IMG/VR virus record: IMGVR_UViG_3300038524_000024
Coordinates: 1 to 64,000 of that record
Reading direction: 5' to 3' (one strand)
Origin: a virus
Taxonomy: Duplodnaviria; Caudoviricetes
Length of the DNA stretch: 64,000 nt
This document shows, in pieces, positions 4,258-22,132 of this stretch (the first letter of the stretch is position 1; the number at the start of each line of letters is the position of its first letter). The notes beneath the pieces are model-generated. The model had not been told where the DNA came from and did no database searches. It was given only the letters and a program-made list of their open reading frames with translations. Made by a program: the position numbers and the translations under genes.

Positions 4258-4604
4258 ATTCTTTCTATTTGTATTTTTTATTTTATAATCAAGGATTACC
4301 AGTAAGTATTAAGTAGCATTTAAAATGGTGACTCTGTTTCCGATAATCCTTGATTACTTCAATAATTCTATCATATATGTTTTTATTTGTCAAGCGTTTA
4401 TTATGACAATATAAGCCTATATCCATAAAAAACGCCAGATTTTGATAAAATCTCTAAGTGGTCAATACCTTCGTTATAATCATTGGTCATAAAAATTATA
4501 GACCAGTTATTATTTTCGTCCATTACTTGAAGTAAGTATTTATACATATCTATCTCCTTTATATTTTAGTTATTTATTAAATAAAACTGTTCTTTTATTT
4601 CTAA

Positions 4605-8146: not shown

Positions 8147-9523
8147 ATGTCAGAAATTGAATATGAAGTTAATACATATAAGAAATTTACTATCAAGGCT
8201 GGTGATATTGTTAGGATTCGCCAAAAAGAAGATATTTATAATGATTATCGCAAGGGGCTGATAGATTGTGGTTGGAATGATTATATGTATGATTTGTGTG
8301 GCAACCAATATATTGTCACAGAACAAATTGCCGAAAGAGCCAATCAAGGTATTGATGATATTTTTCATATTGTTATGCCACAAAAAACCGTAGGAATTAG
8401 TTTATCAATGTTGGAATTAGTAACTGAAAACGATAAAGATGTTGAGGAAATTAAGCCTATTACTTTGGTTAACGCAGAACAGGACAATGCTATCATTGAA
8501 GAAATGATAAAGAAAGTAGATGTTATGCGTTTTAGGAAACTGTTAAGCATTGCTGGGGCAAGTAGTGAAACACGTCCAGATAAAATTACCGATAAAGTTA
8601 TTATGAAATATTTGACCAATTGGGCAAAAGCAAAGTATGATATTTATTTGTTATTTGACCACAATTTAAGTATTAATAAGCAAGTGGATATCGAGATGGA
8701 CGATGAAGATATGTATACTAAAATGAAAGATTTAGCACGTGCTTATCCCCAATATGCCAACATGATTTATTCCTTTAACAGCAAGGAGTTTTTGAACAAC
8801 GAAAGTTTAGACTATAACAGAACACTTCAAGAGGTTTATCCAGACTATAAAAAAGGTACAAAACTAAGCAAGGTAATAGCAAATCTTGTAACCGATAGGG
8901 GATTTAGCGATGCTGTTGCCAACATGATGGAGGACAGAAAAATTAAGAGCAATATTGCCCTGTCAATTGACCCATATGATTACTTTACTATGTCTGTCAA
9001 TAACTATGGGTGGGAAAGTTGTCAGAAGATTGGAAGTGGTGACCATGGATTTGCTACTGGTGCTGGGTCTATTATGTTGGACGATGTAACAATTATTGCA
9101 TATCGACATAGTGGTAAAAACGAAGAGTATACTATGTCAAATATTAAGTTTTCTGGCAACTCAAAATCTTGGAGGCAATGCATTTATATTGACAAAGAAC
9201 ATTGCAGTTTTATTGCAGGAAGGGAATATCCGTCAGAAAAGAATTTGTTGGCAAAAGAAGTAAGGCTTACTCTTGAACACAAAATTGGTGATTATCTAAA
9301 CGTTAATAATGATTGGATTGTTACCAAAAACGGCGAAAGAGACTATGTAAAAGGGTCTGAAAATCTATATCATGATGTTAGTAGCGGATATAATTATCGC
9401 ACAGCCTATCTACGGGATAGAGAACGAGTCATCAGTGTAAGGGTTGGGCGCAATACATTCTGTGTAATTTGTGGCAAGGTTATTACTGGCAACCATTCAC
9501 GATATATTTGTCAACATTGCTAA
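8147..9523 (+). CDS. Conserved hypothetical phage protein with C-terminal Zn finger
   Basis: 458-aa ORF; SIDPYDYFTMS...WESC; CVICG...CQHC. Confidence 0.75.
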   Translation: MSEIEYEVNTYKKFTIKAGDIVRIRQKEDIYNDYRKGLIDCGWNDYMYDLCGNQYIVTEQIAERANQGIDDIFHIVMPQKTVGISLSMLELVTENDKDVEEIKPITLVNAEQDNAIIEEMIKKVDVMRFRKLLSIAGASSETRPDKITDKVIMKYLTNWAKAKYDIYLLFDHNLSINKQVDIEMDDEDMYTKMKDLARAYPQYANMIYSFNSKEFLNNESLDYNRTLQEVYPDYKKGTKLSKVIANLVTDRGFSDAVANMMEDRKIKSNIALSIDPYDYFTMSVNNYGWESCQKIGSGDHGFATGAGSIMLDDVTIIAYRHSGKNEEYTMSNIKFSGNSKSWRQCIYIDKEHCSFIAGREYPSEKNLLAKEVRLTLEHKIGDYLNVNNDWIVTKNGERDYVKGSENLYHDVSSGYNYRTAYLRDRERVISVRVGRNTFCVICGKVITGNHSRYICQHC

Positions 9524-9693
9524 ATTAAAATAGCATACAGTATTGCACAACATGCAGTACTGTATGCAAACTAAAAGGTAATGAAGAGAATAAAAACAAT
9601 AAATAACAAGGCGATATATAATAATATAACAACATATATATATTATATATAACCAAAAATATTTGTATCGTATATAAAATAAATAGGAGAACC

Positions 9694-9966
9694 ATGGTTG
9701 AAACTTTATCTAAAATGGATTGGAAAATTATTACAATTGCTTTGCTTTCTTGGGCTTTGGCGTTGGAAATTATTGCCAATATTAGTAACAGGAGAGCACT
9801 AAAAACATTTATTGAGCAATTATTTATTACAAGGGGCGTTTTAGGGATGTATCGAGAAATATTTGGTTTTCCAACAGATGAACAAATTCAAAATGCCATG
9901 TTGAAAATCGAAGCAGTCAAAAACCAAACCCAAAACAAGGTAGACAATGACGATACGCCTAAATAA
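9694..9966 (+). CDS. Small membrane-anchored protein
   Basis: N-terminal hydrophobic helix; AGGAG RBS. Confidence 0.6.
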   Translation: MVETLSKMDWKIITIALLSWALALEIIANISNRRALKTFIEQLFITRGVLGMYREIFGFPTDEQIQNAMLKIEAVKNQTQNKVDNDDTPK

Positions 9967-10623
9967 TTCAAATAACATGGACATTTTTTTTGAGAAAGAA
10001 GCAGATGTAATCTATGCTGATTACATGTATCAAGATAAAGATTTTACGTGGATAGACAAGTTTTGGTATTGGTTGAAGCCAAATTCTGGTATATTTATTG
10101 CTCAAACGGATGATAGCACAATAGCAGAAGTGAAACTAAAATTAGACTCAATGAAAAATGCAAACAAAATTAATATCTGCATTTATAAACAGGAGTGGGG
10201 AGGAAAGCCAAAAAAGGGTTTTCCTAATAAACATGATTATATCATTATATATTCAAACGGTTCAGATTGGAAGTGGTATGCAGACCGTATTCAAATACCT
10301 AAAAAACTCTTACAACCAAATTTAATCCTTCTGGAAGAACAACTAAGACGCCATGTTCTGTGTGGGATGATTTAGGTAACTTTTCTACAATGAGTAAGGA
10401 ACGTGTAAAATTTGCTAATGGAAAAAATTTGCCATATCAAAAACCATTTAAAATGTTTGATAGACTGTTATTGCCATTTACAGATGAGGGTGATTTTGTG
10501 CTTGATTTATTTGCCGGAAGTGGAAGCGTTGGTGCTTGGTGCAAGAATAATAATAGAGATTACTTAGGAATAGAATATAATACTGAAATATATAATATTG
10601 CTAAAGAAAGGTTGGGGTTATAA
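9947..10623 (+). pseudogene. Beta-class N6/N4 DNA methyltransferase split by a frameshift at an A6 tract (10301-10306)
   Basis: N-part has YADYMY (variant of DPPY); C-part has QKP and VLDLFAGSGS; one extra A gives the continuous PKKTLTTKFNPSG...SVWDD. Confidence 0.75.
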
Positions 10624-10943
10624 TGGTACACGATATAACTAAATCTACTACTGTGGTAAATATCAAGGGAAAGCTTAAGGATATGGATTATGATGTATAT
10701 ATTGGTCGTGGTTCAATCTGGGGCAATCCTTTTATTATCGGAATTGATGGTGATAGAGAAGAAGTTATTGAAAAATATCATCAATATTTTTTGCATCAAC
10801 CAAAATTAATTGCTCAGGTATCTAAATTAAAGGGACAAAGATTGGGCTGTTTTTGCAAACCAGAAGCATGTCATGGTGATATTCTTGCATATTATGCAGA
10901 TTATGGGCTTGACAAAGGTTTATATATGAGTTATAATCATTGA
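10623..10943 (+). CDS. DUF4326-family protein
   Basis: YIGRGSIWGNPF...LGCFCKPEACHGDIL. Confidence 0.85.
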   Translation: MVHDITKSTTVVNIKGKLKDMDYDVYIGRGSIWGNPFIIGIDGDREEVIEKYHQYFLHQPKLIAQVSKLKGQRLGCFCKPEACHGDILAYYADYGLDKGLYMSYNH

Positions 10944-10950
10944 AAAGATT

Positions 10951-11022
10951 GCTTCGGTAGCTCAATGGCAGAGTAACGGTCTTATATGCCGCACGTTGAA
11001 GGTTCAACTCCTTCCCGAAGCA
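10951..11022 (+). tRNA. tRNA-Ile(UAU)
   Basis: Acceptor GCTTCGG/CCGAAGC; anticodon loop CTTATAT; T arm GAAGG-TTCAACT-CCTTC; promoter at 10909-10937. Confidence 0.8.
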
Positions 11023-11024
11023 CT

Positions 11025-11100
11025 AAAATCTATATAACAGAAATGCTTTTATAGACAACGAAAATCTGTATAACAGAAATGCTTTTATAAACAACGAAAA
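11025..11100 (+). repeat. 36-bp imperfect tandem duplication
   Basis: AAAATCTRTATAACAGAAATGCTTTTATARACAACG twice. Confidence 0.85.
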
Positions 11101-11108
11101 GGAGAAAA

Positions 11109-11951
11109 ATGACACATTTTACATTATTAGTAACAAAAGTAAATAAGGTAAGTATTGGAAAGCAATTAGAGCCATTTGCTGAGTATTTGGAGGTTGAGGA
11201 ATATATGATGGAAACAAAATCTCAACTGCTTGAGAATGCAAAAAAAAGAATTAATGAAGATAGAAAGGTATATGAAGAATATTTCAAAGACCCAATTGAA
11301 TATGCTAAAAAAGCAAGTAAACATATGCTAAACTATATTGAAAACGAATTTCCAAAAAAACTTATGTGGACAGATGAAGAAATTTATCAAGACCGCATTA
11401 AATATTATGGAACAGATAAAAAAGAAGGTATATGGCTTGATGCCAATGGTAACCTGTGGACATCATATAATCCAGACTCTAAATATGATTGGTATGTTGT
11501 GGGTGGAAGGTGGAGTGGATATTTTGCTACAAAAGTTCCTAATAATGAATTACAACTAGGGGTTCCCGGAGTATTTGATAATGAGCCACGAGATGGTTAT
11601 GTTGACATTATTAAAGTAAAAGATATTGATTGGGAGCGTATGCAATTAGACGAAATTGAAGAGAGAAGTATCTATTTTGATGAACAACTTTCTTTGCCAG
11701 AAAAAGATAGGTTTGTATTCAATCCTTATTATAAGGTGGGCATGACAAAAGAAGAGTATGTTAATCGTCCATTTTCTAAGGCAACATTTGCGGTGTTACA
11801 TGACGGACAATGGCATGAGCGCGGAGAAATGGGTTGGTTTGCGCATGTTGCCAATGAAAAAGATGAAGACGCTTGGGAAAAAGAATTTGATATGTTAATT
11901 AAATCTCTCAACCAAAATGATGAGATTGCATTGGTTGACTGCCATATATAA
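11109..11951 (+). CDS. Conserved hypothetical phage protein
   Basis: YNPDSKYDWYVVGGRW and C-terminal VDCHI. Confidence 0.8.
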   Translation: MTHFTLLVTKVNKVSIGKQLEPFAEYLEVEEYMMETKSQLLENAKKRINEDRKVYEEYFKDPIEYAKKASKHMLNYIENEFPKKLMWTDEEIYQDRIKYYGTDKKEGIWLDANGNLWTSYNPDSKYDWYVVGGRWSGYFATKVPNNELQLGVPGVFDNEPRDGYVDIIKVKDIDWERMQLDEIEERSIYFDEQLSLPEKDRFVFNPYYKVGMTKEEYVNRPFSKATFAVLHDGQWHERGEMGWFAHVANEKDEDAWEKEFDMLIKSLNQNDEIALVDCHI

Positions 11952-12129
11952 CCAGAATTGCGTATAACCAAAAATTATACGCAATTATATTATAAATTAT
12001 AAGTAGGAATAAAAATGAAATTAGGTAAAGCACAAAGGAGAGACAAAAAAATATACAAAAACAAAATAAAAACTATATCTAAAAAAAATAAAAATACAAA
12101 AATTATTGAACCGGAGGATAGATTTAGAA

Positions 12130-12564
12130 ATGAGTAAACAAATGAATACATATGAAGACTTTAGATTAAGCAATTGGTTTACACAAACGCAACCAAGCAC
12201 ATGTCCAAAACGTACCATCAGTTATAAGTTTGATACTACTAATGACTATAGTTTTAGTGTTATTTATGACAGTATGCAACCAAAACCAAAACCAAAACTT
12301 GTCAAACTTGTAAATAACAACCCATATACCATTGCTTTTTGGAGTGACAATACACAAACACGAGCCACTTGCTTGCCAGAAGATATTTACTCACCACAAA
12401 AAGGGCTTTTTATTTGTAGGATGAAGAAAAAGTATGGTTCTTGGACTGCATACCAAGAAGCTAAAAAAAATAAACAAGCGGATAAAGAAGTTCGCAAATT
12501 ATTGAGAAAGATAGCACGTAAGATAGAACTAGAAAATGCTCTAGTTATTAATGTAAATAAGTAG
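12130..12564 (+). CDS. Hypothetical phage protein
   Basis: NNPYTIAFWSDNTQT; GGAGG RBS before ATG at 12130. Confidence 0.65.
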   Translation: MSKQMNTYEDFRLSNWFTQTQPSTCPKRTISYKFDTTNDYSFSVIYDSMQPKPKPKLVKLVNNNPYTIAFWSDNTQTRATCLPEDIYSPQKGLFICRMKKKYGSWTAYQEAKKNKQADKEVRKLLRKIARKIELENALVINVNK

Positions 12565-12637
12565 CCTATATTATAACGAATATTGCCCTTGACAGATTTA
12601 TTATAGCGTGTTATACTTTATATTAAGGAGATAAAAC

Positions 12638-13525
12638 ATGGAAAAAAGATATAATATAACCGAATTGAATGACTATCTTGATAGTTTAAGGGACAAGTCA
12701 ATTCACACAATTAGAATGTACAGAACCGCTATTGATAAATTTGTTATTGGCACAAATATTAAAACGTTTGATGATATCAAAAATATTACCGTCAGAGATG
12801 CCGATAAATATCAAAGATTTTTGCAAGAAACGTTGAGCGCATCGTCGGTAAATTCAAATATACGACCTGTCAATGCAATGTATAACTGGCTTATTGCAAG
12901 AGAATATTTAGACCGCAATCCATTTTCAAGAATAAAATCCATAAAAGAAAATGAAAAAGTACAGGCATTTTTAAGTAATCAAGAAATGATTTCTATGGTC
13001 AGCCACGCACAGGACACAGAAGAAAAGTTAATGCTACTAATGTTATTACAATTGGGTTTGAGACGGTCAGAATTGACCGGAATTAGTGTTGATGATGTTG
13101 CCACAAGAACGCATATCGTTATTAACGGCAAAGGTGGAAAACAACGTCTTTTAGCCCTTCATAGTGACATTGTAGGCGTATTGAATAGGTGGATTGCTAT
13201 TCGTAACCAAAGATTTCCAGCAACTAATTTGAAGTGGCTTTTTATTTCTAGGGTTGGTGGAAGATATTCTGGTGATACCATCAGAAGGCGTATTAAAGCT
13301 ATTATGACACGTGCTGGATTTTCAGAGACAAGGATTAATGAAATTCATACTCATAGTCTTAGGCATACCTTTACGGCAAACCTATTTGAGGGAGGTGCTG
13401 ACATTTATGTTGCACAACAATTGCTTGGTCATAGTGATATTAATACAACAAGACGTTATGCTCACCTACGAGACAACGTAAGAGATAACGCAGTTTTACA
13501 ACAAAAAAGTATTTTAGGGAAATAA
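12638..13525 (+). CDS. Tyrosine recombinase, XerC/D-like
   Basis: GLRRSEL, GKGGKQR, HSLRH, LLGHS, TRRY; promoter at 12589-12617. Confidence 0.93.
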   Translation: MEKRYNITELNDYLDSLRDKSIHTIRMYRTAIDKFVIGTNIKTFDDIKNITVRDADKYQRFLQETLSASSVNSNIRPVNAMYNWLIAREYLDRNPFSRIKSIKENEKVQAFLSNQEMISMVSHAQDTEEKLMLLMLLQLGLRRSELTGISVDDVATRTHIVINGKGGKQRLLALHSDIVGVLNRWIAIRNQRFPATNLKWLFISRVGGRYSGDTIRRRIKAIMTRAGFSETRINEIHTHSLRHTFTANLFEGGADIYVAQQLLGHSDINTTRRYAHLRDNVRDNAVLQQKSILGK

Positions 13526-13575
13526 TGTCTTGTGGCAATTAAAATAGATTCTTACACGAATCTTATAATTGCTAC

Positions 13576-13604
13576 TTGACAAACTAAAAATAATGTGCTA
13601 TCAT
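13576..13604 (+). promoter_or_regulatory. sigma70-type promoter for the ACAGCAA-RNA/DUF2828 unit
   Basis: TTGACA-N17-TATCAT with extended TG; predicted start near 13611, the first base of RNA copy 1. Confidence 0.8.
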
Positions 13605-13610
13605 TGAACT

Positions 13611-13658
13611 ATGATACAAACAGCAACCAAAATGACATGGAATTGTAATCGTATCGTG
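13611..13658 (+). ncRNA. ACAGCAA stem-loop RNA, copy 1
   Basis: ATGATAC-AA-ACAGCAA...GTATCGT-G. Confidence 0.65.
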
Positions 13659-13660
13659 TG

Positions 13661-13718
13661 AAGACTCGTACAGCAATTAAAAAACCTTATTCTGCTAAAA
13701 TAATGAGTTTGAGTCTTG
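13661..13718 (+). ncRNA. ACAGCAA stem-loop RNA, copy 2, with anticodon-like hairpin
   Basis: AAGACTC-GT-ACAGCAA...TTATT-CTGCTAA-AATAA...GAGTCTT-G. Confidence 0.7.
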
Positions 13719-13739
13719 TAAAATAAAAAGGAGAATACA

Positions 13740-15236
13740 ATGAAGTTTACTGAAGCTATAGAAAAATCACTAGAAAAAGATAGTAAATTTACCAAAACCG
13801 AAAACAACGGTAAACAATTTGCAACTACCAATAGTGCATTGGTAGATTTATTTGCGACCATTGGAGCATTACGCAACAAATCCAATGATGAGATTGAAAG
13901 TGCATTTGCAGAAGCCTATGTAGAAAGCCCATTGCTGGCTACAAGAATGGCTTTTTATGCGCGTGATATTCGGCACGGTGGATTGGGGGAACGAAGGATT
14001 TTTCGTACTATTATTAGTCTTTTAGGTCAATATGACCCAGCCACCATTGCACTCAACATAGACTTAATTCCATATTTTGGGCGTTTCGATGATTTATTTT
14101 CTTTAGTTGGAACAAAGTCCGAAAGTGAAATGTGGGAATATATTAGTTCAACATTAGTAAATGACCTGCTTGATATGCACAATGGATATTCAATTACTCA
14201 GTTGGCTAAATGGATGCCAAGTATCAACACCTCATCCAAAGCAACACGTAGCCTTGCTAAACTATGCGCAAAGCATTTATCTATGACCGATAGGACATAT
14301 CGTAAGACATTGAGTGAGCTAAGAAGTTATATTGATATCGTAGAACGCAAAATGAGTAATAACAGATGGGATGAAATCAATTACCCAACAGTCCCATCTA
14401 AGGCTATGATGACATATCAACGTGCTTTTGCAAAACATAGCCCAGAAAGATTTGTAGAATATATTACAAAAGTAACCAATGGAACAGAAAAAATTAACGC
14501 CACAACCTTATATCCATATGATATAGTAAGAGACTATGGATTTAGATTTGATACAGATGCTAGGTTTCAATATCATACTGCTACCGATGCTTTTGATGCA
14601 GTGCTTGAAGAACAATGGAAAGCATTGCCAAATTATGTATCTGGTAACCATAATGTTTTAGTAATGGCTGATACCTCTGGTTCGATGGGTGGATTACCTC
14701 TTCAAATTGCAATTGGACTAGCGGTGTATTTCGCAGAACGTAATACTGGTGAATATAAAGACTTATTTCTAACGTTTTCTAATCAACCAGAGTACGTAAA
14801 ACTATCTGGAAAAACGCTCAAGGACAAATTGTCTGGTATCAAATCAATTGTTGCGAATACCAACATTGAAAAAGCATTTGATTTGATTCTGCAAACTGCT
14901 CTTGACAATGACGTTCCACAATTGGAAATGCCAAAAAGTCTGGTTGTTATTACTGACATGGAATTTGATGAATCCACTGATGGCAACCGTTCATATAAAA
15001 CAGCAAAGAAAAAATTCCAAAACGCTGGATATGAATTACCGACCGTAATATTTTGGAACGTCGCACAAAGAACTACTGGTTTTCAAGTACGTGCAGATAC
15101 AGACAACGTACTTTTGGTTAGTGGTAGTTCTGCTGGAACATTCAAGAACATACTAAACAACATTGGAACAACACCGTATGAATTTATGATTGAAACATTG
15201 AATAGTGAGCCATATAACCAAATTAATTTAGCATAG
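13740..15236 (+). CDS. DUF2828-family protein (TROVE/Ro60-like helical domain + vWA)
   Basis: TENNG, LVDLF, RDIRHGGLGERRIF, AKWMPS, INATTLYPYDIV; MIDAS residues DTSGSM, NTN, ITDMEFD; IFWNV. Confidence 0.85.
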   Translation: MKFTEAIEKSLEKDSKFTKTENNGKQFATTNSALVDLFATIGALRNKSNDEIESAFAEAYVESPLLATRMAFYARDIRHGGLGERRIFRTIISLLGQYDPATIALNIDLIPYFGRFDDLFSLVGTKSESEMWEYISSTLVNDLLDMHNGYSITQLAKWMPSINTSSKATRSLAKLCAKHLSMTDRTYRKTLSELRSYIDIVERKMSNNRWDEINYPTVPSKAMMTYQRAFAKHSPERFVEYITKVTNGTEKINATTLYPYDIVRDYGFRFDTDARFQYHTATDAFDAVLEEQWKALPNYVSGNHNVLVMADTSGSMGGLPLQIAIGLAVYFAERNTGEYKDLFLTFSNQPEYVKLSGKTLKDKLSGIKSIVANTNIEKAFDLILQTALDNDVPQLEMPKSLVVITDMEFDESTDGNRSYKTAKKKFQNAGYELPTVIFWNVAQRTTGFQVRADTDNVLLVSGSSAGTFKNILNNIGTTPYEFMIETLNSEPYNQINLA

Positions 15237-15266
15237 TACATTAATAATAGAATATAACTAAGTTTA

Positions 15267-15341
15267 ACGACACTCACAGCAATTCAATTCTTAACTCCAA
15301 AGCATAATATAATGCTTAATTTCAAGAAATTTAGTGTCGTG
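15267..15341 (+). ncRNA. ACAGCAA stem-loop RNA, copy 3
   Basis: ACGACAC-TC-ACAGCAA...GTGTCGT-G, directly before tRNA-Met. Confidence 0.7.
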
Positions 15342-15349
15342 TATAATAC

Positions 15350-15420
15350 TGCGGGTGGTAGGTCGGTATCTTGAGATGCTCATAACCTCTTAAAAACAGA
15401 TTCAACTTCTGTACCCGCTA
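15350..15420 (+). tRNA. tRNA-Met(CAU), initiator-like but divergent
   Basis: TGCGGGT/ACCCGCT with 1:72 mismatch; loop CTCATAA; T arm ACAGA-TTCAACT-TCTGT; lacks the three consecutive G-C anticodon-stem pairs. Confidence 0.7.
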
Positions 15421-15600
15421 ACTTGAATTTTTGAACTATGTCAAAAATTCTTGATTTTCATGTGAGGGGGAAAGTTCTCCTTTCTGTTGGGCATAGCTTA
15501 GGGTTTGTTGCTTCTGAGGGGGTGGTTTCCCCGAATAAATATCAGATAAAACCCAAAGAATATGTTGATAAGATAATAATATGTATAAAATTGGAGAAAA

Positions 15601-15981
15601 ATGAAAAAGTTTTTTATTGCAATAATTGTTTTTATGTTTTTGATTGCAGGGTGCGCAACACAGGCAGATGTGGCTTCACAAAATTTATCTAGGTCTGCCG
15701 ATAGTTTTGAAATCACTAGGCGAATCGTGTTTTATAATGGTATCAATGGCGATTACATCCTTCAAATCGAAGGATTATGTTCTCTTGGAAATTATGACGC
15801 GTCGGGCGAATTATCTGTGACTTGTAAGACCAGTCCAACAGAATTTAAGAAGCATTATCTTGGGTTATCTGACAATGTAACCTATTTCGCAGAGCAAATC
15901 GACTCGGCTTCTGTTAGTACTTATCATTATCGAGTTATTTTTAAGCCATCTACTATTATACCAGACATTGATTTACAGTAA
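15601..15981 (+). CDS. Phage lipoprotein
   Basis: Signal peptide with lipobox IAGC; SADSFEITRRIVFYNGI motif. Confidence 0.85.
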   Translation: MKKFFIAIIVFMFLIAGCATQADVASQNLSRSADSFEITRRIVFYNGINGDYILQIEGLCSLGNYDASGELSVTCKTSPTEFKKHYLGLSDNVTYFAEQIDSASVSTYHYRVIFKPSTIIPDIDLQ

Positions 15982-16034
15982 GAAATTTGTAAATCAAATT
16001 TGGAAATAATGGTAGCAACTAGATTGGAAGTCTT

Positions 16035-16205
16035 ATGTTAGTAGAACTACTTATTATTTTATTGGTTTTGGCAATTGTGTTTTATATCTTTACAAAATAT
16101 ATGTCACCTCCCATTCCCGCCCCTTGGGGTAATTGGGCAACTGTAATTTTAGCAATTATTGTAATTGTCTTTTTGTTAAACCTTTTTCTTGGATTAGGTC
16201 TTTAA
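16035..16205 (+). CDS. Small two-TM membrane protein (not in ORF track)
   Basis: MLVELLIILLVLAIVFY...PIPAPW...LLNLFLGLGL. Confidence 0.6.
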   Translation: MLVELLIILLVLAIVFYIFTKYMSPPIPAPWGNWATVILAIIVIVFLLNLFLGLGL

Positions 16206-16218
16206 TATATCAATAGAT

Positions 16219-16292
16219 AGGTAGATAGCTCAGTTGGTTAGAGCGCATCTTTTACACAGATGAGGTCGCAGGTTCGAGCCCTGTTCTGCCTA
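16219..16292 (+). tRNA. tRNA-Val(UAC)
   Basis: Canonical cloverleaf; CATCT-TTTACAC-AGATG; GGTTCGAGCCC. Confidence 0.93.
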
Positions 16293-16385
16293 ATTGATAA
16301 GTAGAAGTTTTTGTGTACATTAACAACGCCCGAATAACATAGTTGCCACTTGACAAATTTATAAAAGTGTGGTATAATTCTAATA

Positions 16386-16470
16386 TAGAAAGAGATAGGT
16401 TTCTCTCGCGAAGAAAGCCGACAAGTGGCTCTGCACTTCTCTTTCTAAAATAATCAGAGAGCAGAGGAGA
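16386..16470 (+). promoter_or_regulatory. Structured 5' leader of HNH endonuclease gene
   Basis: Stem TAGAAAGAG/CTCTTTCTA enclosing ATAGG...CGAAGA and a hairpin with CTCTGC complementary to GCAGAG at the RBS; promoter at 16350-16378. Confidence 0.55.
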
Positions 16471-16473
16471 AAT

Positions 16474-17217
16474 ATGGAGACAAGAAAAGAAAAGATTTTA
16501 TCATTAGGTAAAAAACACTTTAACAACGTAATAGCGCAGTCTGCGAGTATAAAAGATGTTTTTAATATGTATGGATTTAATCTAAACGGGCATGGAAGAG
16601 GTAAAATTATTCATGATATAGCAGAAGAATGGGGTATCTCGATAGATTATGGAAAAAATAGAAGCACATCAAAAATATTTAATTGCACAAAATGTGGAAA
16701 AGAAATTAAAGTAACACAAGCAAGATTGAAAAATAGTAAAAGCGGACTATTTTTTTGTAGTAGAAAATGTAAAGATTCGGAAAGCATCTGCGGAGGAAAA
16801 ATTGCCCTTAATTTTTACGGAGACGCTATACAAAAAAATTGTTTATATTGTGGGAAAAAAATAGAGACAAGAGTAAAAGAAAGAGTTTTTTGTAGCAAAA
16901 GTTGTTATATGTTGCATAAGAAAGAAAAGGAGGAGGAGGCAAGATTAAAGATTATTGACGATTGGAAAAGAGGAATTCATAAACCAGAATTGCTTCATCC
17001 AGCAATAAGAAACTATCTCATTGATATTCGTAATAATAAATGTGATGTATGTGGGAATAACGAATGGAACGGAAAACAAATTCCTTTGGAAATACATCAC
17101 ATAGATGGAAATGCCACTAATCAATCTAAAGATAATTTGCAGGTATTGTGCTTAAATTGCCACGGGCAAACAAAGAATTATAAAAGTAAAAATGAAAAAA
17201 GAATAAGAAGAATTTAG
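16474..17217 (+). CDS. Free-standing HNH homing endonuclease with Zn-binding repeats
   Basis: CxxC..FCSxxC repeats; LEIHHIDGN...NLQVLCLNCH. Confidence 0.9.
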   Translation: METRKEKILSLGKKHFNNVIAQSASIKDVFNMYGFNLNGHGRGKIIHDIAEEWGISIDYGKNRSTSKIFNCTKCGKEIKVTQARLKNSKSGLFFCSRKCKDSESICGGKIALNFYGDAIQKNCLYCGKKIETRVKERVFCSKSCYMLHKKEKEEEARLKIIDDWKRGIHKPELLHPAIRNYLIDIRNNKCDVCGNNEWNGKQIPLEIHHIDGNATNQSKDNLQVLCLNCHGQTKNYKSKNEKRIRRI

Positions 17218-17229
17218 TACTTTGACATC

Positions 17230-17302
17230 GCCAAAGTAACACAATTAGATAGTGTGCTCGCCTTGTAAGCGAGAGATTTCGAGGCAGATTCGAACTTTGG
17301 CT
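17230..17302 (+). tRNA. tRNA-Thr(UGU) with atypical T loop
   Basis: GCCAAAG/CTTTGGC; CTCGC-CTTGTAA-GCGAG; T loop GGCAGAT. Confidence 0.75.
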
Positions 17303-17306
17303 CAAT

Positions 17307-17515
17307 AGGAGTAGCTCTCCTAGAAATGGTTAGAGTGTGCGTAATCGAGAGATGAGATGTCCGGATGCAGTGGTAAACTAACCTCCACGATAGTGTCCCC
17401 TCCTCGCCTGCTACGTTGTCCGTCATCGTGAGTTCTCTGTAAGCATATGGATGTTGTATGAGCTAGGTATCATAAGCAGTCGAATTACAGGAAGTAATGC
17501 AGGTTGCGCACACAC
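17307..17515 (+). ncRNA. Putative structured ncRNA of about 200 nt
   Basis: 12-bp closing stem GTGTGCGTAATC/GGTTGCGCACAC, internal hairpins, GGTTAG/CTAACC possible pseudoknot. Confidence 0.45.
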
Positions 17516-17537
17516 AACAAATAATTTCTGGAGGAAT

Positions 17538-17735
17538 ATGGGCAGAAGATTTGTTAATGAAAGAATGAGGAAAACACATGTTCCGGGCTACTGCTTTATG
17601 TGGGTATCTGCTCATAATGGAAAATATTGGAAACGAAAAATGCACAAAGCAAGACGCAGGGCTTGGAAACAATATGGTATAGAAGGTATGCCAGACAACG
17701 TATACGAGTCGTATTGTAATTGGAAAGGTTGGTAA
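17538..17735 (+). CDS. Small basic protein
   Basis: GGAGG RBS; MGRRF...KRKMHKARRR. Confidence 0.6.
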   Translation: MGRRFVNERMRKTHVPGYCFMWVSAHNGKYWKRKMHKARRRAWKQYGIEGMPDNVYESYCNWKGW

Positions 17736-17736
17736 C

Positions 17737-17811
17737 GGGGCTGACGAGGGTCGCCACTTGCGTCACCTAAACGCCGCAGGTGTAATCCGGATGCAACTTC
17801 CGGCAGCTCCA
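17737..17811 (+). ncRNA. Mini RNA resembling the tRNA-like domain of tmRNA
   Basis: GGGGCTG/CAGCTCC-A with G3.U70; no D stem; 8-bp stem with 12-nt loop; T arm CCGGA-TGCAACT-TCCGG. Confidence 0.65.
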
Positions 17812-17814
17812 CAA

Positions 17815-17897
17815 GGGTGTAATGGTATCTGGGATAATACCGCCTGACTGTAAATCAGGTGCCAACGGCTTTGGTGGTTCGAATCCATCTGCACTCA
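17815..17897 (+). tRNA. tRNA-Tyr(GUA)
   Basis: CCTGA-CTGTAAA-TCAGG; long variable arm; GGTTCGAATCC. Confidence 0.9.
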
Positions 17898-17899
17898 CT

Positions 17900-18187
17900 G
17901 GGGAAGTCACGCCCCCATTACCCGCGCGAGTGGTACGAAGAGGCGCAGTAGCCGACGGGCTGCGTGACGGCATAGGTGCTTTGTATTCGTGCGCGGTTTT
18001 GGTTGCTACTCGATATGCAACTAAAAGAAGGTCGAGCTCAAAAGTCCCGCCCGAGAGCCGAGCGATTGGAGGTAGGGCGGGCAAAATATGTCAGATTTTA
18101 TGGCTGACAAGTTTACTGGAACAGAAAACCAGTCCGTTAATTTGTGATAGGTCACAATAACCTGCCGGCGGGTGAAATACACCGGAA
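17900..18187 (+). ncRNA. Putative GC-rich multi-hairpin ncRNA
   Basis: Stems CCGCGCGAGT/ATTCGTGCGCGG, GTTGC/GCAAC, CCCGCCC/GGGCGGG, TGTCAG/CTGACA, ACTGG/CCAGT; lies between two tRNAs. Confidence 0.5.
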
Positions 18188-18192
18188 AGAAT

Positions 18193-18265
18193 ATGTCAGT
18201 AGCTCAATTGGTAGAGTGTTGGTCTCCAAAACCAAAGGTTGCAGGTTCGAGTCCTGCCTGATATG
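18193..18265 (+). tRNA. tRNA-Trp(CCA)
   Basis: TTGGT-CTCCAAA-ACCAA; canonical D and T arms. Confidence 0.93.
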
Positions 18266-18266
18266 T

Positions 18267-18499
18267 GGAGAACAGTTCTCTTCAAAGTCTTGACGCATGA
18301 CAGTCTCACGATGAGGGAGGGGTGGTGCATGGCAGGGAACGCCGGATGCAAATCGTGATAAAGGCTGACCGTAGCAACGAGACTGCCCCGAATAGTTTGC
18401 GACGAATAAGGGGCAAACATCTTGGCGAGAGCGTAACAGGCGTATATTTGATGGAAAGCCATCAACAGTCCAATTGGTGAAAATCCATACCTCGCTCCA
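18267..18499 (+). ncRNA. Putative structured ncRNA
   Basis: CAGTCTC/GAGACTG, TCACGAT/ATCGTGA, TGCCCC/GGGGCA, TTGATGG/CCATCAA; ends in TGG-TGAAAAT-CCA...CTCCA. Confidence 0.45.
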
Positions 18500-18753
18500 A
18501 AAACGATAAAATGTTATATGGGTATAAAAATTAGATTTATATTCATATAATAGTTAATATAAGTAAAAACATCTACTTTGTTCACATTTTTAACCTAACG
18601 ATACACAAAATTAATTTTTTGTGTACTAATAAACACCAACAAGTGAGACACAAATAATTTTATGTCTCAAAGGTGAGACACAAATAATTGCCACTTGACA
18701 TTTTCAAATCAATATGCTATAATAACCTTAATAAAAAATACTATGGAGACAAT

Positions 18754-18951
18754 ATGAAATTTTTATTTTTTGCAATTTTTATGACCACTTTAGTTCTGAC
18801 ATATCTGAACTATCAACATATTTCTAATATCAGGAATGTACAACTAAATCAACTTGAAATTTATTTAATGAGAATCAATGTAGTTACATTATGTTTATTA
18901 AATGTAGGGTCGCTGGCATTGCTAATCTATTTTGTTTTTTCTAGTATATAA
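18754..18951 (+). CDS. Small two-TM membrane protein
   Basis: GGAG RBS; promoter at 18695-18723. Confidence 0.55.
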   Translation: MKFLFFAIFMTTLVLTYLNYQHISNIRNVQLNQLEIYLMRINVVTLCLLNVGSLALLIYFVFSSI

Positions 18952-18978
18952 ATAAAATAACATTTATAGGAGATAACA

Positions 18979-19815
18979 GTGATTAATAATAAGATGTTGG
19001 GATATAAAGATATAGTTATCAATCCAATAGTTTCAAACATGGTTTCAACTGAACTTGTTGATATATCATTTCGTCTACCAGATGAAACTAAATCATTGTC
19101 TTTACCATTACTGACACGTGTGGGTGGAAGCAATAGCATAGATATATGCAGTGCATTATCTGATTTGGGTATTCTTGGAATTATAGATAAAATTGATAAT
19201 ATCCATGAAAAATATAGTGCAAACAGCGAACTTCTTTCTGGGCTTGGTTTATGGGGTACTTCTGTAAATATAGAAGATAATCCAAAGGAAACTATAAAAG
19301 TTTTGGAATTAAATCCAACCATTGTAGACATACGTTCTGGTAGCGGATATTCATTAGAAACCTTAAAGTTTACAGAAGAAATCAAGGAATATTGTGTGCA
19401 TCAAGGATTGAATTCATTAGTTTCTTCCGGTAATGTAATCACGCTTGATGGAACAAATGCTTTGCTTTCTGCGGGGGCAGACTTGGTTAGAGTTGGAAAT
19501 CCGGGTGGTGCGTATTTTTATGAAGAACTCGTACACATACCACAAGTTACTGCTATCCAAGATTGTTGGAACGCAGACGTAATGATTATTGCAGATGAAG
19601 ACCAACTTAGCCTTGGGGATTTCATTAAAGCCTTGGCAATCGGTGCAGACCTATGCATGGTGCAACGAATTGTGCCAGATGATTATGATAACTATCGTGT
19701 TCATTTAAGGATGCTTGTTGATGCTTATATTAGCGACGTATGTATGTTCTGTATGTCAATGAATGCAAATACCATAGACGCTATGCGTAATAATAGTGAA
19801 ATTATAGTTAAATAA
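18979..19815 (+). CDS. IMPDH/GMP reductase-like TIM barrel lacking the catalytic Cys loop
   Basis: GNVIT..G...L..AGADLVRVG, PQVTAI, IIAD, GD..KALAIGAD; GPGSICTT loop absent. Confidence 0.75.
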   Translation: MINNKMLGYKDIVINPIVSNMVSTELVDISFRLPDETKSLSLPLLTRVGGSNSIDICSALSDLGILGIIDKIDNIHEKYSANSELLSGLGLWGTSVNIEDNPKETIKVLELNPTIVDIRSGSGYSLETLKFTEEIKEYCVHQGLNSLVSSGNVITLDGTNALLSAGADLVRVGNPGGAYFYEELVHIPQVTAIQDCWNADVMIIADEDQLSLGDFIKALAIGADLCMVQRIVPDDYDNYRVHLRMLVDAYISDVCMFCMSMNANTIDAMRNNSEIIVK

Positions 19816-19825
19816 GGAGAAAAAT

Positions 19826-20086
19826 ATGTACGTGACACCAAAGTATAATTATTTTGATATTAAATCGAAAGCGCAAGAGGTTTCTTTATCTTGTTTTACT
19901 GATGACCACAAGGACATTACATCTCAATGTGAATTCAAATTGCATAATGTCAATCCAGATATCACAATATCTAATAATAGCATAAAAATTGGTAAGAAAC
20001 CAGTAAAAAGCACAAATAAAATCATCGTTTTATATGAAAAAAGTGGCGTAATTGAACAAGATTTTGCTATGGCTTATATTGAGTAA
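19826..20086 (+). CDS. Hypothetical protein
   Basis: AAGGAG RBS. Confidence 0.6.
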   Translation: MYVTPKYNYFDIKSKAQEVSLSCFTDDHKDITSQCEFKLHNVNPDITISNNSIKIGKKPVKSTNKIIVLYEKSGVIEQDFAMAYIE

Positions 20087-20216
20087 TAATTTATTGACAT
20101 AAATAGCAAACTATGATACAATTGTTCATATAGAAGCACTAATATGTAATCAGTAAAATTATTGATTCTATATATGAGAACATTCGAAAAATAATAAATA
20201 ATATAGAAGGGAAAAC

Positions 20217-20432
20217 ATGAAAGAATTTAATGAATTGCTATTTATGCTTGAAACACGTTGTAGGGTATACAGAGAAATGAGTCAAATGGATTCTCATTTA
20301 GAAATGGAAAATATTATAGAACAAATTCATTCTGAACTAGAGAAACTTACCCAATACAAAGTTGGATTTTCTTCTACTAAAAAACTGCCAGATAGACCAT
20401 GGTATCCACTTCCAGAAAAGAGTCTAACTTAA
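20217..20432 (+). CDS. Hypothetical protein
   Basis: Follows promoter at 20094-20122. Confidence 0.55.
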   Translation: MKEFNELLFMLETRCRVYREMSQMDSHLEMENIIEQIHSELEKLTQYKVGFSSTKKLPDRPWYPLPEKSLT

Positions 20433-21025
20433 TGATACAGACAGATAAAACACACCACTGGACATACAGGGCGCTTGGAGCCAGTAATCACGACCCTGAA
20501 CTTAGGGCAGACTATGATTACTATGCAACTGACCCACATGCTATTGATGACTTATTTGTGGTCGAAGATTTTGATGAAAACATTTGGGAATGTGCTTCAG
20601 GGGAAAATCATTTGGCGTATAGACTTGAGGAATGTAATAAAATTGTTTTGAAAACAGATATTATATCTAGAAAAAGCGATATCTTTAGTTTGGATTTTTT
20701 ATCTGATGAAGCACTTGTTTTAAGTGGTGAATATGACATTATTACCAATCCGCCGTATAAATATGCATTAGATTTTTGTGAACAAGCAATTAAATTAATG
20801 AAAAATAAAACTGCCATGTTATTAAATTTAAGATTTTTAGAAGGACAGAAAAGATATAATTTTTTTGCGAAGTATCCAATGAAAAAAGTATGGATATATT
20901 CTCGCAGACTACAATGTGCTCGAAATGGTGATTTTAGTTTGGCAAAAGGTGGGGTTACAGCATTTGCATGGTTTGTTTGGGAACGAAACTTTCATAGTGA
21001 ACCAAAAATAGGATGGATAAAATAA
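20432..21025 (+). CDS. Phage amino-(N6A/N4C) DNA methyltransferase
   Basis: DYYAT, IWECASG, DIITNPPY, FAWFVW; start MIQT overlaps the upstream stop. Confidence 0.85.
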   Translation: MIQTDKTHHWTYRALGASNHDPELRADYDYYATDPHAIDDLFVVEDFDENIWECASGENHLAYRLEECNKIVLKTDIISRKSDIFSLDFLSDEALVLSGEYDIITNPPYKYALDFCEQAIKLMKNKTAMLLNLRFLEGQKRYNFFAKYPMKKVWIYSRRLQCARNGDFSLAKGGVTAFAWFVWERNFHSEPKIGWIK

Positions 21026-21026
21026 G

Positions 21027-21254
21027 GTGAATGACAAAAAACTTATCATACATATTCAAGATGATACCCCATATGATGTTGCATTAGGATGTGTCAATGG
21101 CGTTATTCAAATGGGTAGGGTTTCTAATTTTGGAAAGTCATACTGCTTTATAAGCACATTTGAAAGCGGAACCATAGTTTATGCTATTAGAAATAAAAAT
21201 TCTGATACTTTTTATGTTATGAAAGAATCACTAGCTAAAAAAGAGACATTGTAA
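21027..21254 (+). CDS. Hypothetical protein
   Basis: ORF in operon. Confidence 0.6.
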   Translation: MNDKKLIIHIQDDTPYDVALGCVNGVIQMGRVSNFGKSYCFISTFESGTIVYAIRNKNSDTFYVMKESLAKKETL

Positions 21255-21286
21255 ATGAAGTGGTGATATAACAATATAGACATTAA

Positions 21287-21359
21287 ACTCTGATAGCCCA
21301 ATGGATAAGGCGACAGACTTCTAATCTGTAGATTGAAGGTTCGAATCCTTTTCAGAGTA
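21287..21359 (+). tRNA. tRNA-Arg(UCU)
   Basis: ACAGA-CTTCTAA-TCTGT; GGTTCGAATCC; ACTCTGA/TCAGAGT. Confidence 0.93.
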
Positions 21360-21384
21360 CAAGAAATATAATAAGGAGAAATCA

Positions 21385-21642
21385 ATGGACGAATATGATG
21401 GTATTGAAATAATTTGTGAGTGTGCAGGACGTTGTGGAATTCTAAATTTTGAAAAATTTGATGACGATGAAGAAATGATTGCAATACAGTATTTTCTACC
21501 TGCCCATTATCATACTACTATTAGTTGGAAAGAATCTTTGAAAATTATATGGGCTTTACTTCGTGGTAAGCAATATTATTTTTACGATATTATTTTAAAC
21601 AAACAACAAATTGAAAAACTGCGTAGATATTTAGATAAATAA
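21385..21642 (+). CDS. Hypothetical protein
   Basis: AAGGAG RBS. Confidence 0.6.
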   Translation: MDEYDGIEIICECAGRCGILNFEKFDDDEEMIAIQYFLPAHYHTTISWKESLKIIWALLRGKQYYFYDIILNKQQIEKLRRYLDK

Positions 21643-21646
21643 CATT

Positions 21647-21886
21647 ATGATAATATATAAAAACAAACAAAAAACTATAAAAGAACCTTTTCTGATTGAG
21701 TGTGACATATGTGGCATAAAATATGAAACAAATGAAGATATTTTTGAACACCAAGAGTTTCTAAAGATTGATTTTATTGGGGGATACAATTCTGTATTTG
21801 GTGATATGAGTCATGTTAGATGCGATATATGTCAAAAATGTTTATATAATATAATAAGCCCATATATGAAAATAGAGAGAGGATAA
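21647..21886 (+). CDS. Zn-binding hypothetical protein
   Basis: CDIC...GGYNSVFGD...DICQKC. Confidence 0.7.
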   Translation: MIIYKNKQKTIKEPFLIECDICGIKYETNEDIFEHQEFLKIDFIGGYNSVFGDMSHVRCDICQKCLYNIISPYMKIERG

Positions 21887-21892
21887 TAATAT

Positions 21893-22126: not shown

Positions 22127-22132
22127 TTTATC

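What the first reader, a model, noticed from the sequence alone, without database searches (positions are those of the whole stretch)
13687..13703. ACAGCAA RNA copy 2 displays a perfect anticodon stem-loop mimic (Ser GCU)
Seen: TTATT-CTGCTAA-AATAA is a 5-bp stem with a 7-nt loop C-U-GCU-A-A, the canonical anticodon-arm geometry. Weaker echoes exist: copy 1 has ACA-TGGAAT-TGT (U-GGA-A, only a 6-nt loop), and copy 3 contains CTCCAAA (15295-15301), identical to this phage's tRNA-Trp loop but not in its own stem. Established: several anti-phage effectors (PrrC, RloC, AriB of PARIS) cleave tRNA anticodon arms. Inference: these RNAs could be protein-scaffolded decoys for anticodon nucleases or tRNA-modifying enzymes. 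Only one clear example is present, and an AT-only stem could be chance.
Basis: partly seen in the sequence, partly recalled or inferred. Interest (0 to 1): 0.8.

Follow-up and report, generated by a model that had tools for sequence, protein, structure and literature searches.

The report
Anticodon-arm mimic on phage Y-like RNA
A small RNA next to a phage gene for a Ro60-like ring protein carries a look-alike of a serine tRNA anticodon arm; the same design, with many different anticodons, recurs in related phages, so it is a selected feature of an apparently undescribed Y-RNA-like particle that may act in the phage-host contest over tRNAs.

Summary
The hairpin is at 13687-13703 as described: a 5-bp A/T stem and the 7-nt loop C-U-GCU-A-A. 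It is not chance. It lies inside the second of three "handle" RNAs (a 7-8-bp covarying helix, 1-2 nt, then ACAGCAA) that flank a DUF2828+vWA gene. I predict this protein folds like Ro60.

In 86 related phage loci, handle units lie almost only on the gene strand (245 versus 7). Among 143 distinct units, 47 carry a 5-bp/7-nt Y-U-NNN-R hairpin, against 2.3±1.5 in shuffles. C-U-NNN-A-A heptamers in the unit interiors have five flanking pairs in 34 of 83 cases, against 1 of 624 in the adjacent coding sequence. An independent set of 80 MAG loci gave the same result.

The hairpin starts 9-12 nt after the motif (10 nt here). Stems covary while loops keep tRNA form, and anticodons vary (GUU, GCU, UUU, GCA, UGA, CAU and others). 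Other units carry T arms or whole tRNA bodies.

The closest known system is Ro60 with YrlA tRNA-mimic Y RNAs, but the protein family, binding motif and anticodon-arm cargo all differ. The decoy function is plausible but untested.

This scan has already noted the same RNA-protein system in at least 111 other genomes. I found no paper or Rfam family for it.

The parts
13576..13604 (+). Sigma-70-like promoter (TTGACA, 17 nt, TG-TATCAT). It would start transcription at about the first base of copy 1.
   Evidence: 11 of 12 consensus matches with an extended -10 TG. This is a consensus match only; the number of sites in the region did not exceed shuffles.
13611..13657 (+). Handle RNA copy 1: 7-bp helix, AA, ACAGCAA, 24-nt interior without an anticodon-like hairpin, closing strand.
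   Evidence: sequence; model R1, 16.7 bits; scanner.
13661..13717 (+). Handle RNA copy 2. Helix 13661-13668 with 13710-13717; ACAGCAA 13670-13676; 10-nt spacer; anticodon-arm mimic 13687-13703; 6-nt spacer.
   Evidence: 15.2 bits. The handle keeps the near-invariant G3 and C7 of the family helix.
13687..13703 (+). The finding itself: 5-bp stem and 7-nt loop C-U-GCU-A-A (serine GCU type anticodon-arm mimic).
   Evidence: Its offset of 10 nt from the motif is the family mode. The same loop sits on three other, different stems in L012, L016 and L034.
13740..15236 (+). DUF2828 + DUF7788/vWA protein (498 aa), a predicted Ro60-like ring and the presumed partner of the handle RNAs.
   Evidence: Pfam; PHROG 850, 'RNA-binding protein'; AlphaFold2, mean pLDDT 88.5; top Foldseek hits are Ro60, Rsr and Thermus phage phiLo Ro60, aligned over the full length.
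15267..15340 (+). Handle RNA copy 3: 7-8-bp helix, C, ACAGCAA, 51-nt interior with its own hairpin. CTCCAAA is present but not in a 5-bp stem.
   Evidence: z = -2.95; 23.5 bits.
15351..15419 (+). Aberrant tRNA-like RNA (ARAGORN calls it Met, CAU) 10 nt after copy 3. It may belong to the same transcript or RNA set.
   Evidence: ARAGORN; absent from the Rfam tRNA matches at E<=1; stable fold, z = -3.07.

Best explanation
Copy 2 belongs to a widespread family of phage small RNAs with two modules. Module 1 is a constant 'handle': a 7-9-bp helix with conserved G3 and C7, then 0-2 nt, then single-stranded ACAGCAA. It most likely binds the adjacent DUF2828/vWA protein, a predicted Ro60-like ring, as Y RNAs bind Ro60. 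Module 2 is exchangeable cargo. In copy 2, and in about a third of family members, the cargo is an anticodon stem-loop mimic placed about 10 nt after the motif. In other members it is a T arm, a circularly permuted YrlA-like tRNA body, or a whole tRNA body with the handle inserted. The particle would therefore present a free anticodon arm (here Ser-GCU type) to proteins that recognise tRNA anticodon arms. My preferred mechanism is competitive binding: a decoy or inhibitor for host tRNA-targeting nucleases or other anticodon-arm binders during infection. Shown: the motif, its covariation, its strand and gene association, the hairpin excess, and the predicted protein fold. Inferred: protein-RNA binding, expression as discrete RNAs, and the decoy role.
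For: Handle family: units lie on the gene strand 245 versus 7 times in 86 phage loci, and 81 of 86 loci have at least one. The count is 104 versus 6 in 80 independent MAG loci. All 92 covariance-model hits are on the gene strand. The handle helix is 98.8% paired and all 7 pairs covary. Units occur in Listeria A511, Staphylococcus, Enterococcus, Bacillus, Fusobacterium, Campylobacter, Mycobacterium and Felixounavirus phages. Anticodon-arm module: 47 of 143 units versus 2.3±1.5 in shuffles, maximum 8. 34 of 83 C-U-NNN-A-A heptamers have five flanking pairs versus 1 of 624 in coding sequence, and there are 20 distinct hairpins in 6.9 kb versus 0 in 109 kb. The replication gave 16 of 56 versus 1 of 297. 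Offsets peak at 9-12 nt. The hairpin helix is 98.1% paired and all 5 pairs show compensatory changes. C-U-NNN-A-A is also the commonest loop form of real tRNAs in these loci, 74 of 162. Other tRNA modules attached to the same handle appear. Protein: the Ro60-like fold. Biology: Bas63 gp130 is a homologue reported to counter the ppl defence system. Hughes et al. [quoted passage not shown]
Against: There is no expression, processing or binding data for any member. The A/T-only stem has no predicted stability alone, and RNAfold prefers pairing of loop UGCU with handle AGCA. The closest relative (L091, 64% identical protein, same integrase synteny) has one handle unit on each side of the gene and no anticodon hairpin, so this cargo is dispensable or turns over fast. 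Two thirds of units carry other cargo. Bas63's handle units lack a canonical anticodon hairpin, and ppl is not known to cut tRNA. The sequences are phylogenetically clumped, so the counts overstate the number of independent events. The A5 alignment was fitted to the model structure.
Confidence: 0.5

Rival explanations
1. Tether rather than decoy. As Y RNA tethers Ro60 to PNPase, the anticodon arm recruits a tRNA-binding enzyme to the ring (a modification enzyme such as the t6A or i6A machinery or Tgt, an aminoacyl-tRNA synthetase anticodon-binding domain, an RNA ligase or an RNase). Alternatively it gates the ring for quality control or repair of phage and host tRNAs.
For: The Ro60-like fold. 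Precedents exist: Y RNA tethers Rsr to PNPase, and phiLo Ro60 with its Yrl RNAs binds host PNPase. YrlA is modified by tRNA enzymes. The gene nearly always lies within tRNA clusters. Most mimic anticodons end in U or A followed by A37, the classes that receive t6A or i6A (the modification rule is from my own knowledge).
Against: No RNA repair or modification gene was found near the locus in this window. The position-36 bias is not significant against neighbouring real tRNAs (p = 0.07). Variants lacking U33 would be poor substrates for enzymes that need a U-turn.
Confidence: 0.3
2. Cis-regulatory element. Copies 1 and 2 lie in the 5' leader of the DUF2828 mRNA and act as operators where the protein, or a seryl-tRNA synthetase-like factor, binds to control translation. 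This would resemble the thrS operator, which mimics the tRNA-Thr anticodon arm.
For: Copies 1 and 2 lie between a strong promoter-like site and the ribosome-binding site. The unit ends about 10 nt before the Shine-Dalgarno sequence. An earlier scan note (e1-5482621) also read one such element as a leader.
Against: Units also lie downstream of the gene (copy 3; Staphylococcus and Mycobacterium phages), hundreds of bases away among tRNAs (Bas63), in arrays, and inserted into tRNA bodies. The anticodon identity varies between phages while the gene stays the same.
Confidence: 0.1
3. Evolutionary relic. The hairpin is a decaying leftover of a tRNA gene from which the unit arose, with no function of its own.
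For: There is a continuum from full tRNA bodies carrying the handle down to minimal units. Cargo turns over fast, and L091 lacks it. The stem is weak and A/T-only.
Against: Stems covary while loops keep C32, A37 and A38. The spacing from the motif is fixed, and many independent stem sequences carry the same loop class. The mimic anticodon set differs from that of neighbouring real tRNAs (G34 56% versus 20%).
Confidence: 0.07
4. Chance A/T-rich inverted repeat, or part of a weak promoter (TTAAAA, 16 nt, AATAAT at 13677-13704).
For: The DNA is A/T-rich, the isolated hairpin folds at 0 kcal/mol, and a 9-of-12 promoter-like match overlaps it.
Against: Shuffles of copy 2 give 0.1-0.3%. The family-wide excess and the fixed position are described. 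Promoter-like sites in the region do not exceed shuffles.
Confidence: 0.03

Closest known systems
Bacterial and mycobacteriophage YrlA Y RNAs with Ro60/Rsr (Chen et al. 2014, PMC4201824; Rfam RF02553)
   Same: A small RNA is encoded beside a Ro60-fold ring protein. A basal helix plus a short conserved single-stranded motif on its 5' side serves as the protein-binding module, and a tRNA-mimicking effector module is attached. One handle-bearing unit of mycobacteriophage Silverleaf matches RF02553 end to end (39.8 bits, E = 6.5e-6), and Bas63 has a unit with the same permuted T arm, acceptor hairpin and D arm order.
   Different: The protein belongs to Pfam DUF2828/DUF7788, not TROVE. The motif is ACAGCAA rather than GNCGAAN0-1G. 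The window's copies do not match RF02553 even at E<=1, and the Silverleaf hit is below the gathering score of 69. YrlA mimics the D arm, T arm and acceptor stem and lacks an anticodon arm. Copy 2 is the reverse: an anticodon arm only.
Thermus phage phiLo Ro60 with Yrl1/Yrl2 (Hu et al. 2025, PMC12135203)
   Same: A phage-encoded Ro60-fold protein with Y-like RNAs encoded just upstream of its gene. Binding was shown by EMSA, and the complex engages a host enzyme (PNPase). The phiLo structure is among the top fold matches (9kop and 9l5y).
   Different: The Yrl RNAs were defined by a CGAA motif in a bulge and have no reported tRNA or anticodon mimicry. Sequence identity is 17%.
Bas63 gp130 (Felixounavirus), reported counter of the ppl defence system (PhageMaP preprint, PMC11482910)
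   Same: gp130 (bas63_0130) is a homologue of the window protein: 32% identity over 95% of its length (H51). It was described as Ro60-like, and its authors guessed that nearby 'tRNA genes' might be Y RNAs.
   Different: The preprint did not identify the RNAs. Here, handle units lie between the annotated tRNAs, and none of them has a canonical anticodon hairpin.
Anticodon-arm mimicry in the E. coli thrS mRNA operator, and anticodon stem-loop minihelices used as tRNA surrogates (my own knowledge)
   Same: A 5-bp/7-nt hairpin with a tRNA-like loop is enough for recognition by an anticodon-binding protein.
   Different: Those are cis-acting operators or laboratory constructs. They are not a gene-linked family of RNAs with a protein handle and interchangeable anticodons.

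Membership tests
ACAGCAA 'handle' RNA family (undescribed; defined here and in earlier notes of this scan) | A 7-9-bp covarying helix with conserved G at position 3 and C at position 7, then 0-2 nt, then ACAGCAA, then an interior and the closing strand | tested here: met
   Copy 2 has AAGACTC(G)/(T)GAGTCTT with G3 and C7, then T, then the motif. R1 scores it 15.2 bits, E = 0.003 in the 2.2-kb region. It was missed by the default filters in the large search.
ACAGCAA 'handle' RNA family | Lies within about 1.5 kb of a DUF2828-type gene, on the same strand | tested here: met
   The unit ends 22 nt before the start codon on the + strand. The family-wide strand bias is 245:7 and 104:6.
tRNA anticodon stem-loop (as a structural mimic) | 5-bp stem and 7-nt loop with pyrimidine 32, U33 and purine 37 | tested here: met
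   The loop C-U-NNN-A-A is the commonest class among 162 real tRNAs of the related loci.
tRNA anticodon stem-loop (as a structural mimic) | The hairpin actually forms, shown by thermodynamics or covariation | tested here: inconclusive
   Thermodynamics argue against it for this copy: 0 kcal/mol alone, and an alternative minimum-energy fold. Covariation across the family argues for it: the same GCU-type loop sits on four different stems, and all 5 pairs covary. No probing data exist.
Genuine tRNA | Cloverleaf with acceptor stem, D arm and T arm, detected by ARAGORN or the Rfam tRNA model | tested here: not met
   Neither tool calls a tRNA at 13611-13717. The unit has no T arm or D arm.
YrlA (Rfam RF02553) | Score at or above the gathering threshold of 69 bits; GNCGAAN0-1G motif; permuted T arm, acceptor stem and D arm domain | tested here: not met
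   There is no RF02553 match in 9000-23000 at E<=1. The motif differs, and copy 2 has no T or D arm.
Ro60/TROVE protein family (for the partner protein) | HEAT-repeat ring plus a C-terminal vWA domain | tested here: met
   AlphaFold2 model with mean pLDDT 88.5. The Foldseek top 13 hits are Ro60, Rsr and phiLo Ro60, with 520-580 aligned columns and TM about 0.55. The vWA domain is seen by Pfam.
Ro60/TROVE protein family (for the partner protein) | Sequence membership in the Pfam TROVE domain | tested here: not met
   Pfam gives DUF2828 and DUF7788/vWA only. Sequence searches of PDB find no Ro60. The relationship is visible only at fold level, at 12-17% identity.
Decoy or inhibitor of anticodon nucleases | Binds or is cleaved by a tRNA-targeting nuclease and protects the phage | not testable with these tools
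   Only indirect evidence exists: the gp130 phenotype and a literature suggestion for YrlA.

The most novel reading that the evidence does not exclude
Phages carry a modular, exchangeable panel of anticodon arms mounted on a Ro60-like ring through a universal handle. Each arm would be matched to a tRNA species that the host's defence nucleases or toxins attack, so the particle acts as a programmable competitive inhibitor or sensor. Variants lacking U33 (C-A/G/C-GUU-A-A) would bind but not be cleaved.
Probability: 0.3. Interest if true: 0.9.

Novelty: new variant of a known kind. Interest (0 to 1): 0.8.

Why it matters
tRNA anticodon arms have emerged as a main target in phage-bacterium conflict (PrrC, PARIS AriB, P2 OLD, retron and Schlafen effectors). 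The known phage answers are replacement tRNAs and RNA repair. A gene-linked family of RNAs that mount isolated anticodon arms on a Ro60-like scaffold would be a third kind of answer. It would also give the long-unexplained Ro60/Y-RNA architecture a concrete, testable function.

The partner gene occurs in at least 704 sequenced phages, including the laboratory phages Felix O1-like Bas63, Listeria A511 and cluster L mycobacteriophages. The idea can therefore be tested directly. The handle motif also gives a simple rule for finding these RNAs, which current tRNA and Rfam annotation misses or mislabels as long or pseudo-tRNAs.

Tried and rejected
- Rfam 15 at permissive E-values over 9000-23000 found only tRNAs. 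Twenty related loci at gathering score gave the same result.
- Megablast of the locus against phage records found no match.
- The search for related loci with the single protein found nothing. It worked with protein alignments.
- Paper searches for DUF2828, for Ro60 + phage + anticodon, and for the motif found no description of these RNAs.
- MAFFT alignments of whole units misplaced the covarying 3' strand. I therefore seeded the model with four closely related units. The resulting R1 is narrow and scores copy 2 through a local skip of the interior.
- No further copies turned up in the 105-kb virus record.
- I rejected a chance hairpin and the promoter reading (see the rival explanations).
- I rejected codon-anticodon pairing between the loop and the handle as the reason for motif conservation. 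The motif is invariant in units with UUU, CAU or no anticodon hairpin.
- I rejected the idea that mimic anticodons simply copy neighbouring tRNAs.
- No RNA ligase, kinase or repair gene was found near the locus in this window.

Full report
**The observation.** Positions 13687-13703 read TTATT CTGCTAA AATAA. This is a perfect 5-bp stem and a 7-nt loop with C32, U33, the triplet GCU, A37 and A38. Copy 1 has a 3-bp stem around a 6-nt loop at 13635-13646. Copy 3 contains CTCCAAA at 15295-15301, the same heptamer as the anticodon loop of the phage tRNA-Trp at 18193-18265, but with no flanking stem. On its own the 17-mer has no predicted stability (0 kcal/mol). The minimum-energy fold of the whole unit pairs AGCA of the conserved motif with UGCU of the loop. 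Thermodynamics therefore do not support the hairpin, and the case rests on comparison with relatives.

**Surroundings.** The window is the first 64 kb of a 105-kb uncultured virus record. The hairpin lies in the second of three units with one design:
- a 7-8-bp helix;
- 1-2 nt;
- ACAGCAA;
- a variable interior of 24, 33 or 51 nt;
- the closing strand.

Two units (13611-13657 and 13661-13717) lie between a strong promoter-like site (13576-13604) and the start of a 498-aa gene (13740-15236). The third (15267-15340) lies just after that gene and is followed by an aberrant tRNA-like RNA.

The gene encodes Pfam DUF2828 plus DUF7788/vWA and matches PHROG 850, 'RNA-binding protein'. An AlphaFold2 model built on 38 homologues has mean pLDDT 88.5. 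Its best PDB matches over the full length are Xenopus and human Ro60, Deinococcus Rsr and the Ro60 of Thermus phage phiLo, with TM about 0.55 and 12-17% identity. Sequence searches of PDB do not find Ro60, so the relationship is visible only at the level of fold. A tyrosine integrase gene lies upstream, and several tRNA genes lie nearby, mostly downstream.

**The handle RNA family is real.** tblastn finds the protein in 704 phage records. All of the first six loci I read, from phages of very different hosts (an uncultured gut phage fragment and phages of Bacillus, Enterococcus, Listeria, Staphylococcus and Fusobacterium), carry one to five such units beside the gene. So do Campylobacter phage F356, mycobacteriophage Silverleaf and Felixounavirus Bas63.

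In 86 loci, a mechanical scan for stem + motif + stem finds 245 units on the gene strand and 7 on the other. 81 of the 86 loci have at least one. A covariance model seeded with four units finds 92 matches in 354 kb, all on the gene strand. On that alignment the handle helix is 98.8% paired, all seven pairs show compensatory changes, and G3 and C7 are nearly invariant. This alignment was fitted to the model, so the pairing figures lean towards the structure.

No Rfam 15 family matches the window's units. Related loci yield only tRNA matches.

Among 143 distinct units, 47 contain a 5-bp/7-nt hairpin with a Y-U-NNN-R loop. Five hundred dinucleotide shuffles give 2.3±1.5, with a maximum of 8. About a dozen of the 47 are T-loop hairpins.

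A test that selects on the loop only is cleaner. Of 83 C-U-NNN-A-A heptamers in unit interiors, 34 have five consecutive flanking pairs, against 1 of 624 in the adjacent coding sequence. That is 20 distinct hairpins in 6.9 kb against none in 109 kb. Outside real tRNAs and handle units such hairpins are rare: 36 in 736 kb counting both strands, and several of those are unannotated tRNAs.

The hairpin starts 9-12 nt after the motif in most cases, with a mode of 10, which is the value in the window. It ends 6-13 nt before the closing strand. The five stem pairs are 98% paired, with compensatory changes at every position.

Triplets vary: GUU, GCU, GCA, UUU, UGA, GAU, CAU, GGU, GUA and others. The GCU-type loop of the window sits on three other, different stems in L012, L016 and its relatives, and L034.

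An independent set of 80 loci from MAG contigs, mostly Lachnospiraceae and Erysipelotrichaceae, reproduced everything. There were 104 versus 6 units by strand, 16 of 56 versus 1 of 297 paired heptamers, and further anticodons. For copy 2 alone, shuffles of its interior give such a hairpin in 0.28% of trials, and in 0.1% at the right distance.

**What the units are.** The handle is attached to several kinds of tRNA-like cargo:
- Some units add a T arm to the anticodon hairpin, for example the GCA and CAU types.
- Some have the permuted order T arm, acceptor hairpin, D arm that defines YrlA. Silverleaf 3026-3134 matches Rfam YrlA end to end at 39.8 bits, below the gathering score of 69. Bas63 has a similar unit.
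- In 113-127-nt RNAs that Rfam calls tRNA, the same helix is closed by a loop and, with ACAGCAA, is inserted between the D arm and the rest of the tRNA body.

The same helix-plus-motif junction thus appears in two topologies. That is what one expects of a protein-binding module moved between RNA bodies. Real tRNAs of the same loci most often have the C-U-NNN-A-A loop form (74 of 162), so the mimics copy the standard tRNA loop. Their anticodon set differs from that of neighbouring tRNAs, however: G34 in 56% versus 20%. Most minimal units also allow a 3-bp extension outside the hairpin (20 of 27 versus 11.3±1.9 with shuffled spacers).

**How it most likely works.** By analogy with Ro60 and Y RNAs, the DUF2828 ring binds the handle and the cargo faces outward (inference). 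In known cases the cargo engages another protein. Deinococcus Y RNA tethers PNPase. The phiLo Yrl RNAs bind phage Ro60 and host PNPase. YrlA is recognised by tRNA enzymes.

An exposed anticodon arm would engage proteins that read anticodon arms. I favour competitive binding of host tRNA-targeting nucleases, for three reasons:
- Such nucleases are common anti-phage effectors.
- The Bas63 homologue gp130 was reported to counter a defence system.
- Hughes et al. raised the same idea for YrlA.

Variants without U33 (C-A/G/C-GUU-A-A) would fit ligands that bind but do not behave as tRNA. Recruitment of a modification or repair enzyme fits the data almost as well.

Against any essential role for this particular cargo, the closest relative (L091, 64% identical protein, same integrase synteny) has one unit on each side of the gene and no anticodon hairpin. 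Two thirds of units carry other cargo. I put the structural reading (a selected anticodon-arm mimic on a Y-like handle RNA) at about 0.9 and the decoy mechanism at about 0.35.

**Comparison with what is known.** The system works like Ro60 with YrlA. It is not a member of YrlA (no Rfam match, a different motif, different cargo), not a tRNA, and the protein is not a Pfam TROVE member. I found no paper describing these RNAs. The PhageMaP preprint only guessed that some Bas63 'tRNAs' might be Y RNAs.

Earlier notes of this scan describe the same handle RNA and DUF2828 pairing in at least 111 other genomes and on this window. These are unchecked AI notes, and I used them only as leads. The pointer to RF02553 came from them, and I tested it. 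I rate the finding as a new variant of a known kind: a Y-RNA-like particle whose RNA displays an anticodon arm.

Noticed in passing
window 15351-15419 (+): ARAGORN calls a 69-nt tRNA-Met (CAU) 10 nt after handle copy 3, but the Rfam tRNA model does not match it even at E<=1. It folds stably (z = -3.07) with a good acceptor stem and T arm and a doubtful D and anticodon region. It may be another tRNA-like cargo RNA rather than a decoding tRNA.
   Followed up: partly
window 17230-17302 (+): Rfam finds a tRNA here (48.9 bits, loop C-U-UGU-A-A, Thr type) that ARAGORN misses. The phage thus has at least seven tRNA-like genes, and none is Ser-GCU.
   Followed up: partly
L016:1205-1324, L017:1115-1232, L043:3084-3199, L068:966-1090, L001:117-236 and others: Rfam scores these 113-127-nt RNAs as full-length tRNAs. 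Between the D arm and the rest they carry a closed hairpin (often GTCATG...TGAC) followed by ACAGCAA. This is the handle in a circularly permuted topology. Annotation pipelines would call them pseudo-tRNAs or intron-bearing tRNAs.
   Followed up: partly
L055:3828-3889, L057:1350-1408, L069:3108-3173, L009:1258-1313, L034:1345-1406: These anticodon-arm mimics keep C32, the triplet, A37 and A38 but replace the universally conserved U33 with A, G or C. This would be unexpected for anything that must work on the ribosome.
   Followed up: no
window 13670-13697; family-wide: G34 is over-represented among the mimics (56% versus 20% in neighbouring tRNAs). The commonest loops (CUGUU, CUGCU) are complementary over 4 nt to ACAG or AGCA of the handle motif. 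RNAfold uses this pairing in copy 2 and L012. It could be a switch, a pseudoknot or a coincidence; the sample is phylogenetically clumped.
   Followed up: partly
L087 (Bas63, MZ501086) 4215-4281, 4382-4439, 4837-4904, 4924-5049: Four handle units lie between the annotated tRNA genes downstream of gp130. Two have variant motifs (GCAGCAA, TCAGCAA), and one has a YrlA-like body (T arm, acceptor hairpin, D arm). Two of them (4837-4904 and 4924-5049) overlap small annotated minus-strand ORFs (bas63_0137 and bas63_0138).
   Followed up: partly
window 12638-13525 and L091:~1100-1345: A tyrosine integrase/recombinase gene lies directly upstream of the handle RNAs and the DUF2828 gene, both here and in the closest relative. 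The synteny is conserved, but its meaning is unknown in what looks like a large virulent-type phage.
   Followed up: no
L003 (Enterococcus phage EF1) 3468 onward: The GenBank record annotates a 'tRNA-Pseudo-GCT' just downstream of the DUF2828 locus. This may be another handle-tagged or degenerate Ser-GCU-type RNA.
   Followed up: no
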